Assembly: GCA_000004985.1 (NCBI GenBank)
Contig: GG738871.1
DNA from: Naegleria gruberi
Lineage: Eukaryota
DNA: 64,000 nucleotides
Reading direction: 5' to 3' (one strand)
Shown in pieces: positions 3,602 to 31,628 of this stretch (the stretch's first letter is position 1; each line of letters opens with the position of its first letter). The notes beneath the pieces are model-generated. The model saw nothing but the letters and a program-made list of their open reading frames with translations. It was not told the DNA's origin and searched no databases. The translations under genes were made by a program, and so were the position numbers.

Positions 3602-5446
3602 ATGCAACAAAACCTTACACAACCTGGAAAACTCTCGCAACTCATTGAAGAATGGAGCAAGAGGGAATTACACCTAACCGAAATACCACAAACATTTTTT
3701 ATAAGAGAAGTGTGTAGAGGAAATATGATTCCGATATGGAAATTTCTGATCACATATGTGCATGATCCGAAAACTGTGGACCATGTTAAAAAGAATTTGA
3801 TGTTGTAAGTAATTGGTGTGATTTCTTATCATACATTGGGAATTAGGAGTGGAAAAAAGGTTCAAAAATCATTGGATGTCGAAAGAAAAAAGAGACAACA
3901 ACTTGTCAAACAAATTGAAGAAGTTAAATCAAGGATAAACGAAATTAAAGCTAAAGGAATACCAAACACTGAATTTGAAATTATGGAACTGAGGAAAAAA
4001 ATCAAAGTACTTCAATCATCTGTACAGAATCAAAAGAAACAGGAAGACCAAACTACAAAAGAAAATTTCTTAGTTAGAGCTTTTGAAGAAAAGTGTAAAT
4101 TTGACACTTCCGTGTTGAGTGAATATAGCCAGAAATTGGCCATATCGTATGACACAATGAAAAGAATTAACAATGTAAATATTAGCGAGGTTAGAAAAAT
4201 AATAGAAGAATTTGTAAATACTTGTGTTAAAACTTTGAGTAAGGAATTGAATATAGATATCAGTGAGATTGATTTTGCTTCCCTAAAAATCAAAGAACTG
4301 CTTACTCCACAGATTTTGGAACATGCTCAAGAAATACTCAAAGAGCAGTCGATATCTATTCGCCACTCGTTTGAGAATTCTCACACTCTTAAGGATGCTG
4401 ACAAGGAGAGGATTCAGCAAATTGAAAATGCATTGGAGGAGGAAAGAAGAAGACATATCACCAGATTTTCAGAAACTCAATCGTATGTTATCAAGACAGT
4501 ACACTATTTTAATTACATTACTAGTTTGTCTAATATCTCTCAAGACCTTAAGATAAAATTTGAAAGGCTAAACGAGGAAATAAGAGAAACAGGACTCACC
4601 ATCTTTGGTGAGAAATCAATTTATGTTGAGGAAATGAGAAAAAATGAAATTGAACTTTCTCAATTCAGAGCAGTACGAGCTGTACTAGAGGATTATATTG
4701 CTTGCCTTACAGAAGAAAGGGAAAAAAGAAAAATTGTAAGACAAAGCCTTCCTGTCAAACAACAAGAAATCAATAGTCTGAGACAAAAACGAATTCAAAA
4801 ATATGACAAGGTTGAGACACTAATTCAAGAAACCAATACATTGGTGAATATTTTGCCTCAGAAACAAGAACAAGTTCATATGTTTTTGCAAGACAGAATA
4901 CCACCAATTACAGAACCATTCGCTAATGTTTTGGAGACATTTGGCAATATTGTTGAAACTGAGTACAATACTGTTTCTAAAATACCATTGGACTATATCA
5001 TACACACAGATTATGGAGAGAAACGATTATTAAGGAAAGATCTTTCGATATTTGCCAGAGAAGAGCTAGGAGGGAAACTGAAAAAAATACTAGACATTTT
5101 AGAATTTCCTGAACATAAGGCGATTGACCATGTTCTTACTCATGCAACAGATATGAAACAAGAGTTGACTGTTCTAGAAAATGAAAGAGAGAATTTGAAA
5201 GAACTAATTGAACATATGCATGCAGTAGAGCAAGGAGTTGATTCATCTGCCATTCAACAGGTTATTGAGGAAAATCATGAACTAGAAAATGCACAGAACG
5301 AACATTGGACTGGTTTGATTGACAGAACAAAAATGGAGATTGAAAATTTCAAAGAGGAAGCAGAGAATGTACACAATTTATCTGAAGTGCTTTTACACAA
5401 TCCAGTTATCCAGAAAATTGACTGGAATTCATTATTAAACAATTAG
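3602..5446 (+). CDS. HAUS5: Augmin/HAUS complex subunit 5-like coiled-coil protein. join(3602..3804,3847..5446), intron 3805..3846 (GTAAGT...AG, 42 nt).
   Basis: N-terminus IWKFLITYVHDPKTVDHVKKNLML matches HAUS5 [24 protein letters not shown]. The remainder is long coiled coil. Both exons lie in the same frame and the intron length is a multiple of 3. Confidence 0.55.
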
Positions 5447-6561
5447 TTGGTTTTTGATTTACCAAAAAACTTCAGTAATTTGAGTAAGATAACAGTTGCA
5501 ATTACTAATGGAAGTGTGAATACTGAAATAATGGTTTTGATAGTACTATCAGTGTTATCTTCGACTGTTGTATTATCCAATTGATTTAAAAAGTCTGTAA
5601 CAGAACTTTCAGTTGGTGTAGAAACAACAGTAGTTGTTGGCTTTCTTATTGGTAATGATGGTAGGGCTCTTGTAGTTGGAGATGGTTTTCTGGCCTCAGT
5701 AGAGACTGAAGTTGTAAGAGTTGGTGAAATTTCAATTTCAGGGGTTCCAGGTGTAAGTTTCAGTTTTCCATCACCACTTGGAGAGGTGGCTTCTTCTTGG
5801 ATTATACGAAGATCTTCTTCGAATTGTTCAAGCAATTTTTGTTCTTCTTGTACTTGTTTTTCCATTTCTTTCATTTGTTGTTTGTTGAAAAGAGCCTTTT
5901 CGTGGAGTTGTGTAAGAGAACACAAAATTAATTTCTTATTCTTTTGAAGGAAAACATCTTCAAATGTGAAAAGCAAATCTACTGGAAATCCATCAACTTT
6001 TCTCAATCCTGCCAAAAACAAAGCCATATTATTCTTGGCATTAAAAAGATAATTACTATTGAAGGCCTTATCACTACTGAGTGAGAATAATTGTTGATCA
6101 AATTGATGGACCTTTTCATAGGCAATATATGTTGGGAAATAGTGTTGCAATAATTTACATAAAACAAGTCCATTTTCTAAATTGTAATAGAAATTACGAG
6201 AGCTTTCCTTCTTGGAAGCAATATCCGGTAATAATGAAGGTGATGATTTTACATCCAAACCACTGTCCTTTTTAGCAAATTTAATTCCTAAACTATTTTC
6301 GATCCAAGTTTGTAATTGTGTTTCAACTTCATGAAATTTATCTTCCTTGATATCACGTAAAGGACTAATATTCATAATAAATGTTTGCGAAAGGGAATCT
6401 GATCTTGTATGAATTGGAGTCATTGGAGAAGAAATATTTGTTAGTAATTTATTCTTTGGACGTAATGGAGTTGGGGTATTGCTATTACTGTCAACATAAT
6501 CAAAATCATCATCCAAAGAAAAGTTTTCATTTCCTCCGAACGTAACGCCTTGTGATGACAT
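5443..6561 (-). CDS. Calponin-homology (CH) domain protein with a coiled coil and a C-terminal tail-anchor TM.
   Basis: Central CH-domain pattern (WIENSLGIKF ... GLVLCKLLQHYFP ... ALFLAGLRKVDG ... LILCSLTQLH). Hydrophobic C-terminus LPLVIATVILLKLLKFF. ATG at 6561 in A-rich context, with an E2F-like site 30 bp upstream. Confidence 0.5.
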   Translation of the reverse strand: MSSQGVTFGGNENFSLDDDFDYVDSNSNTPTPLRPKNKLLTNISSPMTPIHTRSDSLSQTFIMNISPLRDIKEDKFHEVETQLQTWIENSLGIKFAKKDSGLDVKSSPSLLPDIASKKESSRNFYYNLENGLVLCKLLQHYFPTYIAYEKVHQFDQQLFSLSSDKAFNSNYLFNAKNNMALFLAGLRKVDGFPVDLLFTFEDVFLQKNKKLILCSLTQLHEKALFNKQQMKEMEKQVQEEQKLLEQFEEDLRIIQEEATSPSGDGKLKLTPGTPEIEISPTLTTSVSTEARKPSPTTRALPSLPIRKPTTTVVSTPTESSVTDFLNQLDNTTVEDNTDSTIKTIISVFTLPLVIATVILLKLLKFFGKSKTN

Positions 6562-26100: not shown

Positions 26101-27284
26101 ATGTTTATCACATCCGTTGCCTATGACTACTACAAGGGCTTCGTAACGGCCTTTATTGAAATTACGGATAACACTGATGTCATGGTTTTTGGTAAACCAA
26201 ACTTGAAGAAAATTATACCTATGGTGAATATCATTGCTCTTATTGAAAGTATCTTGGCAGTAATTTTCTTCATTCTAGTTGCTATTCGTGCTTCTGTGTA
26301 GGTTTCTTCTATAATAATCAAAGAAATATTTCTAACATCTCTTTGTAGTACTTCAATGTCAATGTTTATTGTTTTTGTTCCACTTGAAATTTTCTTCCTT
26401 TTCATGTTAGGTTTGATGATGGTTATTTTCTTCTCTTTTGTGATAACAGCATTTAGGTTTACCAGGAAAGTTTATTGGATTGTTGCCTATTGTTTCATCT
26501 TCCCAATTGTTTTTATTAACTTGTGTCTTTTCTTTGGTATGCCAATCTTGGTTTCTATTCTCTTCCCATTGCAAGAAATCAAAGTACTTCAAGGGTATGT
26601 TTTTAAAGTTTCGAATAATGTTTTTAATTGTTAAATAGTCAAAAAGCTTGGGATGTGTCATTGTTTTTAGTTCTCTGGCTCGTTGGTGGTTTATTGAAAG
26701 CATTCGTTAGACCAAGTGAAGACGACAGCAACCCATATCAACATGATAACAAGAACGTCACTTTTACAGCAATCTACGTCTGTGTTCTCTTCTTGATTGC
26801 TGTTTTTATTTTCTTGATTTCTGCTAGATTGGATGGTACTGTTCCATTCTCTACAACAACACCTTTCCCATCTGTATCATATTGGATTGTTTTCATTCCA
26901 ATATTTGTTATTTGGGCAATTGGTACAATTCTCTATTCTATCAAGGCATTCTTGGAATTGAAATTGGTCTACAAGAAGGGTGATGTTAACGGAGATGGTA
27001 TTTTCAAGTCAATCTTCTACATTGGAATGATTGTCTTCCTCTTCTTGTCACTCATCACATCCATTTTATTGTGTGTCAAGCTTTCACTTTCTGCTGAAGA
27101 ACAAGACAAATTCTCTCTTGGATGGTGTTTCTTACCTTTCATTTTGGGCTTTTTCACAATTGCTTGTTGTTGTTCAATTCCATTCTTCCCTCAATTCCGT
27201 AAAGTTAAATCAGCTGCTTTGAAGAATAGTGTCACTAACGAAGTTGAAGAAGCTGCCGAAAAAGAAATGCAATGTTTCCTTTAA
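26101..27284 (+). CDS. Multi-pass membrane protein, 3 exons: join(26101..26297,26349..26594,26639..27284).
   Basis: Three hydrophobic ORFs joined with consistent phases by GTAGGT (51 nt) and GTATGT (44 nt) introns. There are at least 8 predicted TM helices. Confidence 0.5.
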
Positions 27285-27487: not shown

Positions 27488-30400
27488 ATGGTTGTTACAG
27501 ATCAACAGAAACAAGCAATCCGTCAGTGGATTGAAACGGTCACAGGGGAGAAGTTCTCAGATCCCAACGATATGTACACTTCTCTGAAGGATGGTTGTTT
27601 ATTGTGTGGGTGAGTTTCAAGTTTCGAATAATAATAATTTTACATTTCTCTCATTACACACTGTTTAAATTATTATTATATATGTTTATTAACAAATTAG
27701 TTTAATTTCTGCTCTCCGTTGCATTAAATATCCAACCTACAACCGAGAAACTAAAGGTATCATGTTCAAGGAGATGGAAAACATTGCCTACTTTATGCAA
27801 ACCACACAAAAAGCTGGACTCAAACTAAATTGGACACTGAAGGCACTTCATAAGAATGCCGACATGGATGCTGTACTATTATCTTTAATTGATTTATCCA
27901 ATCACATTAAACAGAATAATAATGAAGGATTCAAGGGACCATTCTTGGAATTGGGAAGTTCTACTGCTACCACCACCACTACTACTACTTCTGCTGCTTC
28001 CTCTGATAATTCATCATCCACATCATCACCAGCATCTGTAGGAACATCATCACCCCAAGTGAAAACAAGTGTTCCCGAACCAACAACACCAAAAGTCATC
28101 AAGAAAACATCAAATAATGTAACACCTGGTACTGATTCGAATGTTGATTCACCACCGACCATTACAAGTAGCAGTAATGGAGGTGTTCAATCTAGATTAA
28201 AGAGATTTTTTGGAGGTGGATCAAACGAATCTAAAACAAATGAAACTAAATCAGAACAAACACCTTCTCCACCAGTTACTTCAAATATTTCGACAACATC
28301 AGCAACAACAACACCAACAAAACAATCAACAATTCCATCTGTTACTTCTACTCCACCAGTTTCGAATACTAGTTCAACACCATCATCAACTAATAGCACT
28401 CCTGTAAGGACATCGTCTGCAACAAGTGTCACAACTCCACAAAATTCTTCCTCAAGGAATCTTCTCAGTTCACCAGCAAGTTCTTCATCCCTAACTGGAT
28501 CATCACCAAGAAGATCAATTGGAGGAAATTCAGATGATGACGATGACGATGAAGATGAAGAAGTGATGGATGAAGAAATTTTAACTCATGTTAAAAAGTT
28601 GAAGGAAAGTGTGGAAAATCCAACTCCTGAATATTTGAGAGTTTTAAATCAAAAATTGGAAGCCAAATCACTCAAGTGGTGCAACAAATTTGCCAATGAT
28701 AAGGGAGCTTTCTATTTGGGAGAAATTATCATAACAACCAATAAGAAGTATAAAGGAGCTAATGAAAAGAGTATTCAGGAACAAGCTTTGAATTGTCTCA
28801 ATACTTTGATTGATGTTGGAGCATTAAATGGTATAATCAAATATACATCAATTGTCTTTGCAATTGTCATGTTAACAGATAATAAGGAATCATTGAAAAC
28901 AAGAGTGATGGCTCTTGAATTGTTATCACTTATTTGCACTTTTAATGAACAAGGTTTTTGGGTTGTTTTGGAAGCTTTTGGACAGTGTAAAGTTGAAAAG
29001 AGAGAACCAAAGAGATTTTTCGATATTGTTGATGGGTTGAAGAATGAAAAGGATGAGAAATTCAAAGCATTCTGTTTATTATTATTCAATTCCCTTATTA
29101 ACACACCTCAAGATACCTCAATAAGAATTTTATTGAGAAATGAATTGAAATCTCTTGGATTGGATGATATTGTTACAAAACTTCAAAAGGATGTTGATAG
29201 TGATACTATCAAAGAGGAAAGTCTTAAGGATCAAATCAGAGCTTTTGATGAAGAAATGATGTCCAGGTTTATTGAAAATGATGATGATGAAGATGAGGAG
29301 GAAGAATCTAACAGTTCTCTGATTGACACCAAGTCTATTAAGGATCCACTCCAATTGATGAAGTTATTAACTATCAAACTTGGTGGTAGTTCAGTTGGTA
29401 TCAGTAATTTGAGAAATATTTTACAACATTTATTGGAATACACCCAAATTATTCCTCATGAAATGGATGATATCAACAAGTCTGACAAGATTCTCCAGGA
29501 CAGTTGGAAGAATATTGACAACATGTTGCATGCTCTCACCAACGATTCAATCATGACCAAGAATGTAGTAGCTGATGTGATAAAGAGTGAAAAGATGTTA
29601 AAGATTCTTTTACAAAAAGGTAACAAGAAATCGAAGGAATTGGATCAAGAGGTTGAAAACTTGAAGAAGGAAAATGATGCTCTCAAAAGAGGAGTGAAAT
29701 ATGAACCAGAAATAACATTGCCATCAGGTTCTGGAGATGCTAAGCCAACAACTGAAGTTGCCATGTTGACAAAGCTTGTCAAACAACAGAAAGAAAAGCT
29801 CGAAGCTATGAAAATTTCACTTGAAGATTTAGAGAAGCAAAATATTGATCTTTTGAGAAATATTAAGGAAAAAGATGCTGCTATTGAATCATTCAGGTCA
29901 ACTGGTGTCATGCCAACCAACGTGACGACTTCAACTGAAGGTGTTCCACCAATTCCAAGTGGAGGCGATTCATCGCTTATTCCACCACCACCAATTGGTG
30001 GTGATGTGCCTCCTCCTCCTGGTATGGGAATTCCACCTCCTCCTGGTAGTTCTGGCGTTCCTCCACCACCTGGTGGTGTCCCTCCTCCTCCTGGTGGAGG
30101 CGTTCCATTGCCACCTGGTGTTCCAAAGACTCCAGAAATCAAATTACCTGATTTACCAAAGAGAAGTTCCAAGAAACCACTCAGAAACTTCTATGGTGAT
30201 CCTATCAGAAAGCAAAAAGTTGGTACTACCGCTTGGGTTAAGGATGGTATTGCTGAAAGAACCAAAGATATTGATATCGATCCAAATGAATTGGAAGATC
30301 TCTTCTCCAATGTACCAAAGGAAAAGGAATCTACCAAAAAGGAGAGAAAGATCAAAGAGTTGGTTTCATTCATCGATCCTCAAAAATCGAACAATCTCTC

Positions 30401-31628
30401 AATTTTGCTTGGTTATTTGCGTCTTGACAATGAAGACATTAAGAATGCCATTATAGATATGGACGACGAAATACTTTCTCAACAAAATATCGAATCATTG
30501 AAGGATAAGGCCCCAACTGAAGAAGAAATTCAATCAATTATGGCTTATACAGGTGATAAGGATTTATTGGCTCCAGCTGATAAATTCTATTTGGCCATCA
30601 AGGATGTTCCAAGATTGGCTGGAAGATTGAGTTGTTGGGCTTTCAAGTACAAGTTTGAATCTAGTATTCCTGTAGTTATTCCAGATTTGGAGACTGTCTT
30701 GTTTGCATCTCAGGAAGTTCAAAGAAGTAAGAAATTCAAAGAATTACTTACAGTTATTCTTGCCATTGCAAACTTTTTGAATGCCAACTCATCTAAGAAG
30801 GATTCCTATGGTTTCACACTTTCTAGTTTGTCAAAGTTGAAGGATACTAAAGCAGTTGATGGTAAGACAACCTTACTTCAATATATTGGTATCTTCTGTA
30901 CAAAGAAGAATCAAAATGTTTTGAGAATTAGAGAAGATTTCGGTAATTTGGAAATGGCTACAAGAGTGTCCTTTCCAGAAACTCTTTCTGAAATCTCCAA
31001 GTTGAAAGCAGGTGTTGAAGAAATTGAAAAAGAATTGAACAGACCAGAGTGGAAGAATAATAAGAACGACAAGTTCTATAAGATTATGAGCGAATTTTTG
31101 GAAAATGCTAAGGGTGATATGCGTGTTGTCAATATTTTGACAGGAAAGATTGAACTCAGTCTCAAGACTTTGGCAGATCTCTATGCAGAAGATGAAAAGA
31201 TTTTAACAAAGAATCCAACTGAATTCTTCATGCAAATATTCACATTCTTGGAATCATTCCTTTCCAGTTTGGAAGATTATTTGAGACAAAGAATTTTAGA
31301 AAGAAGGAAGAGAGAAAAGAGAGAAAAACAAAGACAATTGGAGTTGAGAAAGATGCAACAACGAAAACAAATGGAATTAGAAGCACTCAAAAAGAAGAAA
31401 CAACAAGAAACCTCACCTGCAGCTGCAGGTGGTGAACTAACACCAGAATCAGGAGAAAAACGAAATATCAAACAAGCTATCAGACAAAGAAAGCAAAGCA
31501 TGATGTCAGGTGAAGCTTTCAGAGACAAGAGAGAATCCAGAATGGCAGTCAAACAACAACAAGAGTCATCCTCACTCCCATTCCCAGTCAATCTAAGAAA
31601 AACAAAATCCGAAGCAGTTGAACAATAA
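27488..31628 (+). CDS. Diaphanous-type formin with an extra N-terminal calponin-homology domain (CH, S/T-rich linker, GBD/FH3, coiled coil, FH1 poly-Pro, FH2). join(27488..27609,27701..31628).
   Basis: FH1 GIPPPPG/VPPPPG repeats, FH2, and an FH3/armadillo region. The N-terminal CH-domain pattern (IRQWIETVTGEKFSDPNDMYTSLKDGCLLCG|LISAL...NIAYFMQ...) is split by a 91-nt GTGAGT...AG intron. Confidence 0.8.

What the first reader, a model, noticed from the sequence alone, without database searches (positions are those of the whole stretch)
27488..31628. Formin with an N-terminal calponin-homology domain preceding the GBD/FH3-FH1-FH2 modules
The formin ORF, with its first exon at 27488-27609 joined by a GTGAGT intron, begins with a CH-domain-like sequence. 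It continues into an S/T-rich linker, an armadillo-type FH3 region, a coiled coil, an FH1 with GIPPPPG/VPPPPG repeats and an FH2. CH+formin is not a standard Diaphanous-family architecture. It would couple direct actin or microtubule binding by a CH domain to a nucleator. A second CH-domain protein with a tail anchor lies at 5443-6561.
Basis: partly seen in the sequence, partly recalled or inferred. Interest (0 to 1): 0.5.

Follow-up and report, generated by a model that had tools for sequence, protein, structure and literature searches.

The report
Naegleria formin with calponin-homology head
This is a real two-exon Naegleria gruberi gene for an actin-filament-building formin that carries a calponin-type CH domain at its front end, a layout shared by related amoebae (Naegleria, Willaertia, Acrasis) but hidden in the public N. 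gruberi gene model, which omits the first exon.

Summary
The window is Naegleria gruberi. Joining 27488-27609 to 27701-31628 across a 91-nt GT..AG intron gives a 1349-aa protein. Pfam finds CH (aa 6-110, 41.6 bits), DID/FH3, and FH2 (270 bits); an FH1 with five PPPP tracks lies between them.

The CH domain spans the splice junction, and two thirds of it lie in the same ORF as the formin. The fusion therefore does not depend on the splice.

The public model XP_002676576.1 starts at an internal Met and cuts the CH domain in half. The second N. gruberi paralogue is cut the same way.

Full CH-FH3-FH1-FH2 proteins occur in N. fowleri, N. lovaniensis (two), Willaertia magna and Acrasis kona. Two environmental contigs encode the CH, linker and FH3 in the same order; one also has FH1-FH2. 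The intron sits at the same codon in six of these seven loci.

None of 123 other close formin representatives has a Pfam CH. A confident model (pLDDT 92) matches type-3 CH domains (calponin, IQGAP1, transgelin), not EB1.

Two corrections. The Rho-binding part of the GBD is missing. Actin binding by the CH is plausible but untested, and microtubule binding is unlikely.

This is a modest, lineage-restricted variant of a known family.

The parts
27488..27609 (+). Exon 1: start codon, CH-domain residues 1-40 and the first two bases of Gly41
   Evidence: In-frame TAA three codons upstream of the ATG. GTGAGT donor at 27610. N. fowleri, N. lovaniensis (two genes) and Acrasis start with an equivalent short first exon; in Willaertia an in-frame ATG lies in the equivalent CH exon.
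27610..27700 (+). Intron, 91 nt, GT..AG, phase 2, 20% GC
   Evidence: An intron at the same codon (LCG|LIS) is present in L001-L004, Acrasis L007 and environmental contig L006.
27701..31628 (+). Exon 2: rest of the CH domain through to the stop codon. The public model XP_002676576.1 starts inside it at Met66 (27774).
27503..27908 (+). Calponin-homology domain, type 3 (aa 6-110, interrupted by the intron)
   Evidence: Pfam CH 41.6/46.9 bits. Calponin-1 CH E=3.3e-9, gapless across the splice junction. AF2 pLDDT 92.4. Foldseek top hits are calponin-1, IQGAP1 and transgelin CH domains.
27954..28526 (+). Ser/Thr-rich low-complexity linker (aa 126-316)
   Evidence: 48% S+T. A long S/T-rich linker is visible at this position in all the orthologues.
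28527..28568 (+). Acidic run (aa 317-330) directly before the armadillo region
   Evidence: sequence.
28578..29549 (+). DID / FH3 armadillo-repeat regulatory region (aa 334-657). There is no G (Rho-binding) subdomain.
   Evidence: Pfam Drf_GBD (profile positions 69-187 only), FH3_FHOD and Drf_FH3. PDB: INF2 DID 4e-12, mDia1 DID 7e-10, with alignments beginning inside the DID.
29550..29939 (+). Charged, heptad-like region (aa 658-787), presumed dimerisation/coiled coil
   Evidence: Sequence only. Not formally tested.
29940..30125 (+). FH1: five PPPP tracks plus one PLPP (aa 788-849)
30162..31259 (+). FH2 domain (aa 862-1227)
   Evidence: Pfam FH2 269.8 bits, profile 5-371 of 372.
31476..31541 (+). 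DAD-like motif AIRQRKQSMMSGEAFRDKRESR (aa 1300-1321)
   Evidence: BLASTP aligns QSMMSGEAFRDKR to DIAPH3 EALQSGAAFRDRR, which overlaps that protein's Pfam Drf_DAD hit. The motif is conserved in the orthologues. The Pfam Drf_DAD model itself is not matched.
31575..31604 (+). Conserved C-terminal motif LPFPVNLRKT (aa 1333-1342), function unknown
   Evidence: Present in N. fowleri, N. lovaniensis and Willaertia orthologues.

Best explanation
The locus is one two-exon Naegleria gruberi gene. It encodes a 1349-aa Diaphanous-like formin whose N-terminus is a single type-3 calponin-homology domain.

Shown:
- The domain order is CH, a ~190-aa Ser/Thr-rich linker, an acidic run, DID/FH3 armadillo repeats, a charged region, FH1 with five polyproline tracks, FH2, a basic tail and a DAD-like motif.
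- The layout is conserved in a heterolobosean clade: Naegleria (two paralogues), Willaertia and Acrasis.
- The CH is the best-conserved part of the protein.

Inferred from what is established for formins:
- The FH2 dimer nucleates actin filaments and rides on their barbed ends.
- FH1 feeds in profilin-actin.
- DID and the DAD-like tail provide autoinhibition.

Inferred here:
- The CH on its flexible tether occupies the place where canonical relatives carry the Rho-binding G subdomain.
- It works as the targeting or regulatory head of the protein.
- Most probably it docks the nucleator onto existing cortical F-actin, as the IQGAP/Rng2 and GAS2 CH3 domains do.
- This would do in one polypeptide what IQGAP1-mDia1 complexes do in trans.

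My confidence is about 0.95 for the architecture and about 0.4-0.45 for F-actin as the CH ligand.
For: Gene model:
- The splice restores the reading frame, and the alignment to calponin-1 is gapless across the junction.
- CH residues 42-110 lie in the formin ORF itself.
- The upstream gene ends at 27284.

Conservation:
- CH+FH3+FH2 occurs in N. fowleri, N. lovaniensis (two genes), Willaertia and Acrasis.
- Two environmental contigs encode the CH, linker and FH3 in the same order; L005 also has FH1 and FH2.
- The intron is at the same codon in L001-L004, L006 and L007.
- A TMEM185-like gene lies upstream in N. fowleri and N. lovaniensis as in the window.
- Identity to N. fowleri is 77% for the CH, 66% for FH2 and 56% in the best local full-length alignment.

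CH type:
- Pfam CH and calponin/transgelin PDB hits.
- The AF2 model has pLDDT 92.4. Its best folds are calponin-1, IQGAP1 CHD, transgelin, GAS2-CH3 on F-actin, Vav3 and Rng2.
- The nearest non-formin sequence relatives are fungal calponin/transgelin-like proteins.

G subdomain absent:
- The Pfam Drf_GBD match covers only profile positions 69-187.
- The best PDB match is the DID of INF2, and the mDia1 alignment starts about 95 residues into chain 1z2c_B.
- The nearest Pharyngomonas formin has a full GBD (150.7 bits, profile 3-187) and no CH.

Other:
- DAD-like motif.
- A single CH3 domain can bind F-actin (GAS2 cryo-EM, PMC12084551).
Against: - I could not obtain transcript evidence. The exact 1349-aa product is not in the 15-billion-protein collection.
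- F-actin binding by single type-3 CH domains is disputed (PMC12084551). From my own knowledge, the calponin CH, the closest relative here, is neither necessary nor sufficient for actin binding (Gimona and Mital 1998).
- GAS2-CH3 needs an N-terminal extension (ABD1) for full affinity. Here only about 4 residues precede helix A.
- The Pfam Drf_DAD model does not match the tail, so autoinhibition is only suggested.
- The coiled coil was not tested.
Confidence: 0.6

Rival explanations
1. The CH domain is real and fused, but it does not bind actin. It would be a protein-protein or intramolecular regulatory module, as in Vav (where the CH helps autoinhibition), PIX or parvin. It might contact the DID/FH2 or a cortical partner and so gate the formin in place of Rho.
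For: Vav3, Vav1, ARHGEF6/7 and parvin CH domains are among the structural matches. Calponin's CH, the closest sequence relative, is not its actin-binding site (my own knowledge). The G subdomain is missing, so some other release mechanism is needed. F-actin binding by CH3 domains is described as controversial.
Against: IQGAP1, Rng2 and GAS2 CH3 domains match about as well. GAS2-CH3 is shown to bind F-actin in the paper read; binding by IQGAP1 and Rng2 is from my own knowledge. The ~190-aa disordered linker suits a tether better than a tight intramolecular clamp, but this is inference only.
Confidence: 0.3
2. The CH domain binds microtubules, as in EB1, Ndc80, CAMSAP or SPEF1, and so links a formin to spindle or flagellar microtubules.
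For: CH domains of some families bind microtubules. With the first, low-confidence model, EB1 and SPEF1 appeared at ranks 15-24.
Against: With the confident model, no EB1-type domain is in the top 50. The top hits are all type-3 or actin-binding-domain CHs. Sequence hits are calponin and transgelin, not EB. N. gruberi amoebae are reported to lack cytoplasmic microtubules (PMC7594500).
Confidence: 0.05
3. The public short model is the true product. Transcription would start within or after the intron, so the N. gruberi protein begins at Met62 or Met66 with a broken CH domain, and exon 1 is a relic.
For: The deposited models of both N. gruberi paralogues start at MENIA(Y/F)F. I have no transcript data.
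Against: Exon 1 is intact, has a start codon and good splice signals, and is well conserved with N. fowleri; the whole CH domain is 77% identical. Independent annotations of four other species include it. A relic would not keep frame, splice sites and invariant CH residues. The two N. gruberi models share one annotation pipeline, so they are not independent evidence.
Confidence: 0.04
4. The CH exon belongs to a separate upstream gene, so the fusion is an artefact of reading the sequence.
For: None found.
Against: The upstream TMEM185-like ORF ends with a stop at 27284, and an in-frame stop precedes the ATG at 27488. Two thirds of the CH domain are encoded in the formin ORF.
Confidence: 0.01

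Closest known systems
Diaphanous-related formins (mDia1-3, Dictyostelium ForH and similar)
   Same: DID/FH3 armadillo region, FH1 polyproline tracks, a full FH2, and a basic tail with an SGxAFRxxR motif that aligns to the C-terminal half of the DIAPH3 DAD.
   Different: There is no counterpart of the Rho-binding G subdomain. A CH domain and a long S/T linker sit in its place. The Pfam DAD model is not matched.
INF2 (inverted formin 2)
   Same: The best solved-structure match of the regulatory region is the INF2 DID (E=4e-12). As in INF2, the DID starts without a preceding G subdomain.
   Different: INF2 has no CH domain. No WH2-type DAD is evident here. The FH2 is not specifically INF2-like; the nearest relatives are heterolobosean formins.
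IQGAP1-mDia1 and Rng2-Cdc12 partnerships (a CH-domain scaffold plus a formin, in trans)
   Same: A type-3 CH domain and a formin act together. The IQGAP1 CHD and the Rng2 CH are among the best structural matches of this CH.
   Different: Here the two are in one polypeptide. There are no IQ, GRD or RasGAP-C parts. The functional analogy is my inference and was not tested.
Calponin / transgelin (SM22, Scp1) family
   Same: These are the closest CH relatives by sequence and fold. The shared motifs include SLKDG(V/I)LLC, FK(E/Q)MENI and GFxGPxL directly after the domain.
   Different: There are no calponin (CLIK) repeats; Pfam PF00402 is not matched. The CH is followed by a formin.
Other lineage-specific N-terminal additions to formins (FHA, C2, PTEN-C2, PX, FYVE, SH3, PDZ in delphilin)
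   Same: The principle is the same: an accessory targeting domain in front of FH1-FH2. Such domains are seen among the nearest 123 formin representatives and are discussed by Grunt et al. 2008.
   Different: None of those representatives carries a CH domain. CH is not mentioned as a formin domain in the surveys I read.

Membership tests
Formins (FH2-domain proteins) | Complete FH2 domain | tested here: met
   Pfam FH2 269.8 bits, profile 5-371 of 372.
Formins (FH2-domain proteins) | Proline-rich FH1 directly upstream of FH2 | tested here: met
   Five PPPP tracks at aa 802-838, about 25 residues before FH2.
Formins (FH2-domain proteins) | Actin nucleation and processive barbed-end elongation | not testable with these tools
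   Needs pyrene-actin or TIRF assays.
Diaphanous-related formins (DRF) | DID/FH3 armadillo-repeat region | tested here: met
   Drf_FH3 67.6 bits and FH3_FHOD 40.9 bits. mDia1, INF2 and FMNL DID structures match at E=1e-8 to 4e-12.
Diaphanous-related formins (DRF) | N-terminal Rho-GTPase-binding G subdomain | tested here: not met
   The Pfam Drf_GBD hit covers only profile positions 69-187. The mDia1 alignment starts about 95 residues into chain 1z2c_B. Only about 20 ordered residues lie between the acidic run and the DID. By contrast, the Pharyngomonas formin has the full GBD.
Diaphanous-related formins (DRF) | C-terminal DAD (MDxLL core plus basic patch) | tested here: inconclusive
   SGEAFRDKR aligns with the DIAPH3 DAD C-terminal half and basic patch. 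The Pfam Drf_DAD model does not match any of the three heterolobosean tails scanned.
Calponin-homology domain (PF00307) | Sequence match above the curated threshold and the CH helical fold | tested here: met
   41.6/46.9 bits against a cut-off of 26. AF2 pLDDT 92.4, and the top 50 Foldseek hits are all CH domains.
Type-3 (calponin/transgelin/IQGAP/Vav) single CH domains | Closest relatives are CH3 domains, and a single copy is present | tested here: met
   PDB phmmer: calponin-1, calponin-2 and transgelin. Foldseek: calponin-1, IQGAP1, transgelin, GAS2-CH3 and Vav3. One CH only.
Calponin/transgelin proteins proper | Calponin (CLIK) repeat after the CH domain | tested here: not met
   No PF00402 hit in the protein, although the fungal relatives P0024 and P0025 have it.
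EB-type microtubule-binding CH domains | Closest similarity to EB1-type CH domains | tested here: not met
   EB1 is absent from the top 50 structural hits of the confident model and from the sequence hits.
F-actin-binding CH modules | Direct binding to filament sides | not testable with these tools
   Needs co-sedimentation or cryo-EM. The literature says CH3 binding is protein-specific.

The most novel reading that the evidence does not exclude
In a heterolobosean clade, a formin lineage swapped its Rho-binding G subdomain for a tethered type-3 CH domain. Recruitment or release of the nucleator would then be driven by existing F-actin, or by a CH partner, rather than by a Rho GTPase. That would be a filament-templated, positive-feedback way to place a formin. 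It would also be a natural in-cis version of the IQGAP-formin pair, and it could help settle whether single CH3 domains bind actin.
Probability: 0.2. Interest if true: 0.6.

Novelty: new variant of a known kind. Interest (0 to 1): 0.38.

Why it matters
Formins are defined by FH1-FH2, but where and when they fire is set by their N-termini. A CH-headed formin conserved across Naegleria, Willaertia and Acrasis is a regulatory layout not described in the formin surveys I could read.

Its CH is better conserved than its FH2. Both N. gruberi copies are hidden by truncated gene models, so they are not visible in domain surveys that rely on the deposited N. gruberi models; the 2008 survey I read lists no CH among formin domains.

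The practical result is a corrected gene model for XP_002676576.1, and by the same logic for XP_002668869.1.

Biologically it offers a simple test case for two questions: whether a lone type-3 CH domain binds F-actin, and how a DID-containing formin is controlled without a G subdomain. The organism crawls on actin alone and includes a human pathogen in its genus.

It remains a domain-shuffling variant within a family already known for such shuffling.

Tried and rejected
- Word-indexed protein searches were swamped by low-complexity words. The full-length query gave only 14 hits and the FH2 profile only 3. The exhaustive HMMER search had to carry the orthologue survey.
- The first AF2 run, on a 5-sequence alignment, gave a poor model (pLDDT 63) and weak fold matches. 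A 13-sequence alignment fixed this.
The exact sequence is not in the collection. The locus of the second N. gruberi paralogue was not on record.
- The Pfam Drf_DAD model gave no hit on the tails, and PDB phmmer on the tail gave only noise.
- Literature searches found no description of a CH-formin (papers read). The supplements of Velle and Fritz-Laylin 2020 are not held, so expression of this gene in amoebae versus flagellates could not be read.
- Rejected: a separate upstream gene, and read-through of the intron, which hits an immediate stop.
Full report
**What is there**

The window is Naegleria gruberi. The long ORF at 27762-31628 is 100% identical to XP_002676576.1 / EFC43832.1, 'diaphanous-related formin [Naegleria gruberi]', 1284 aa.

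- The ATG is at 27488, with an in-frame TAA three codons upstream.
- Exon 1 is 27488-27609.
- The intron is 27610-27700: 91 nt, GTGAGT...TTAG, 20% GC against 37% in the coding sequence.
- Exon 2 is 27701-31628.
- The joined CDS is in frame and gives 1349 aa. Reading into the intron hits a stop at once.

**Domains**

Pfam on the spliced protein:

| Domain | Residues | Bits | Note |
|---|---|---|---|
| CH | 6-110 | 41.6 | cut-off 26; 46.9 bits for the isolated domain |
| Drf_GBD | 334-453 | 33.4 | only profile positions 69-187 of 188 |
| FH3_FHOD | 401-531 | 40.9 | |
| Drf_FH3 | 463-657 | 67.6 | |
| FH2 | 862-1227 | 269.8 | profile 5-371 of 372 |

Between the CH and the armadillo region lie a 191-aa linker (27% Ser, 21% Thr) and an acidic run. 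FH1 (aa 788-849) has five PPPP tracks.

**Is the CH really part of the formin?**

Yes, and this does not rest on the splice alone.
- CH residues 42-110 are encoded in the same uninterrupted ORF as FH3-FH1-FH2.
- The phmmer alignment to human calponin-1 CH (1wyp, E=3.3e-9) runs without a gap across the junction: LKDGCLLCG|LISALR against LKDGIILCEFINKLQ.
- The gene upstream is a TMEM185-like membrane protein. It ends with a stop at 27284, 204 nt before the ATG.
- The public N. gruberi model starts at Met66 (MENIAYF...) and so cuts the CH in half, and no CH is on record among its precomputed Pfam domains.
- The corrected 1349-aa sequence is not present in the 15-billion-protein collection.

**Relatives**

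Full CH + FH3 + FH2 proteins are annotated in four other species:
- N. fowleri: XP_044562518.1, which UniRef names 'Calponin-homology (CH) domain-containing protein'.
- N. lovaniensis: two genes.
- Willaertia magna.
- Acrasis kona: KAL0478379.1, with CH at 31.7 bits.

Two environmental contigs encode the same order of parts on one strand. L005 has the CH, an S/T linker and FH3-FH1-FH2. L006 has the CH, a linker and FH3 before the 5.2-kb contig ends.

The intron inside the CH sits at the same codon in six of these seven loci: N. fowleri, both N. lovaniensis genes, Willaertia, Acrasis and L006. L005 has its introns elsewhere.

The TMEM185-like gene lies upstream of the formin in N. fowleri and N. 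lovaniensis, as in the window.

N. gruberi has a second paralogue, XP_002668869.1. Its public model also begins at MENIAFF, which is the same truncation.

The CH is the best-conserved part of the protein. Identity to N. fowleri is 77% for the CH, 66% for FH2 and 56% in the best local full-length alignment.

**How unusual is it?**

I ran an exhaustive HMMER search of the exon-2 product against 1.84 billion cluster representatives. It found 6895 formin-like proteins at E<=1e-3.
- The top hits are the heterolobosean CH-formins.
- Of the next 123 representatives of at least 650 aa, none matches Pfam CH at E<=1e-3.
- Their accessory domains are FHA, SH3, PTEN-C2, FYVE, C2, PX and PGAP1.
- The nearest formin of the heterolobosean Pharyngomonas (deep-branching, from my own knowledge) has a complete GBD (150.7 bits, profile 3-187) and no CH.

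In the literature:
- The formin survey of Grunt et al. 2008 included 15 N. gruberi formins and lists no CH.
- Pruyne 2017 mentions neither CH nor Naegleria.
- Velle and Fritz-Laylin 2020 count 14 formins without mention of CH.
- Other searches found nothing.

The library is incomplete, so an earlier mention elsewhere cannot be excluded. Automatic databases already flag the domain in N. fowleri.

**What kind of CH?**

- Sequence relatives outside the formins are fungal (chytrid and other early-diverging fungi) calponin/transgelin-like proteins.
- The shared motifs include SLKDGVLLC, FK(E/Q)MENI and GFxGPxL.
- With a 13-sequence alignment, AlphaFold2 gives pLDDT 92.4 and pTM 0.86.
- The best Foldseek matches in the PDB are calponin-1 CH (TM 0.77), IQGAP1 CHD, calponin-2, transgelin, transgelin-2, GAS2-CH3 bound to F-actin, Vav3 and Rng2.
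- EB1-type domains are not in the top 50.

It is therefore a single type-3 CH. There are no calponin repeats.

**The 'GBD'**

- Only the armadillo part of the Pfam GBD model is matched.
- Against solved structures the region matches the DID of INF2 best (4e-12), then mDia1 (7e-10).
- The mDia1 alignment starts about 95 residues into chain 1z2c_B, and the INF2 alignment about 50 residues into the chain.
- Upstream there is only an acidic run and the S/T linker.

The Rho-binding G subdomain therefore has no counterpart, and the CH plus linker sit where it would be.

At the C-terminus, QSMMSGEAFRDKR aligns with DIAPH3 EALQSGAAFRDRR, which overlaps that protein's Pfam DAD. The motif is conserved in the orthologues. 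The Pfam DAD model itself does not match. Autoinhibition is suggested, not shown.

**Mechanism**

Inferred from established formin biology: the FH2 dimer nucleates and elongates filaments, FH1 delivers profilin-actin, and DID with the DAD-like tail gives autoinhibition.

Inferred here: the CH on a long flexible tether is the targeting or regulatory head.
- My preferred partner is the side of existing actin filaments, as for the IQGAP1/Rng2 and GAS2 CH3 domains. This would make the protein an in-cis version of the IQGAP-formin pair.
- This step is weak. F-actin binding by single CH3 domains is described as controversial. GAS2 uses an N-terminal extension that this protein lacks. From my own knowledge, calponin's own CH is not its actin-binding site.
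- The main rival is a non-actin partner or an intramolecular regulatory role, as in Vav.
- Microtubule binding is unlikely on fold and sequence grounds. Naegleria amoebae are also reported to lack cytoplasmic microtubules.

**Verdict**

- The interpretation needs two corrections: there is no true GBD, and the CH ligand is unknown.
- This is a new variant within a family known for N-terminal domain shuffling.
- It yields corrected gene models for both N. gruberi copies and a tidy experimental question.
- It does not change the picture of how formins work.
- Interest is moderate to low (0.38).

Noticed in passing
window 5443-6561 (-): A 372-aa ORF with a Pfam CH domain (36.2 bits, aa 115-222; weak CAMSAP_CH hint) and a C-terminal hydrophobic stretch IISVFTLPLVIATVILLKLL followed by a short basic end.
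   Followed up: partly
N. gruberi XP_002668869.1 (P0033), not in this window: The second N. gruberi CH-formin paralogue has a public model that also starts at MENIAFF, in the middle of the CH domain. Both N. gruberi copies seem to have lost exon 1 in annotation. Its locus was not retrievable.
   Followed up: partly
L003 4001-5025 (Willaertia magna JBEGDK010000137.1): The Willaertia model P0004 fuses an RNase_T exonuclease (aa 1-226) to the CH-formin. An in-frame ATG (MSRRTISSSDQQSIKSWIETV) lies in the CH exon, so the fusion is probably a merge of two neighbouring genes.
   Followed up: partly
L005 8001-12841 and L006 1978-4438 (JGI metagenomes 3300062347 and 3300037860): Environmental contigs from unidentified heterolobosean-like eukaryotes carry CH-formin genes that a gene caller without introns split into pieces. 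L005 shares the TRAM_LAG1_CLN8 neighbour with the N. lovaniensis paralogue locus. The CH of L006 looks closest to that of Acrasis.
   Followed up: partly
window 3818-5446 (+): ORF matching HAUS5, an augmin complex subunit (75.2 bits). It is a spindle microtubule-nucleation factor, and its stop overlaps the end of the CH/tail-anchor ORF on the other strand.
   Followed up: no
window 31575-31604 (+): The extreme C-terminal motif LPFPVNLRKT is conserved in the Naegleria and Willaertia orthologues but not in the second paralogue or in Acrasis. No known function.
   Followed up: no
L003 13170-13573: In Willaertia, another multi-CH protein (CH, CAMSAP_CH faint, CH) lies about 3.6 kb downstream of the CH-formin.
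   Followed up: no
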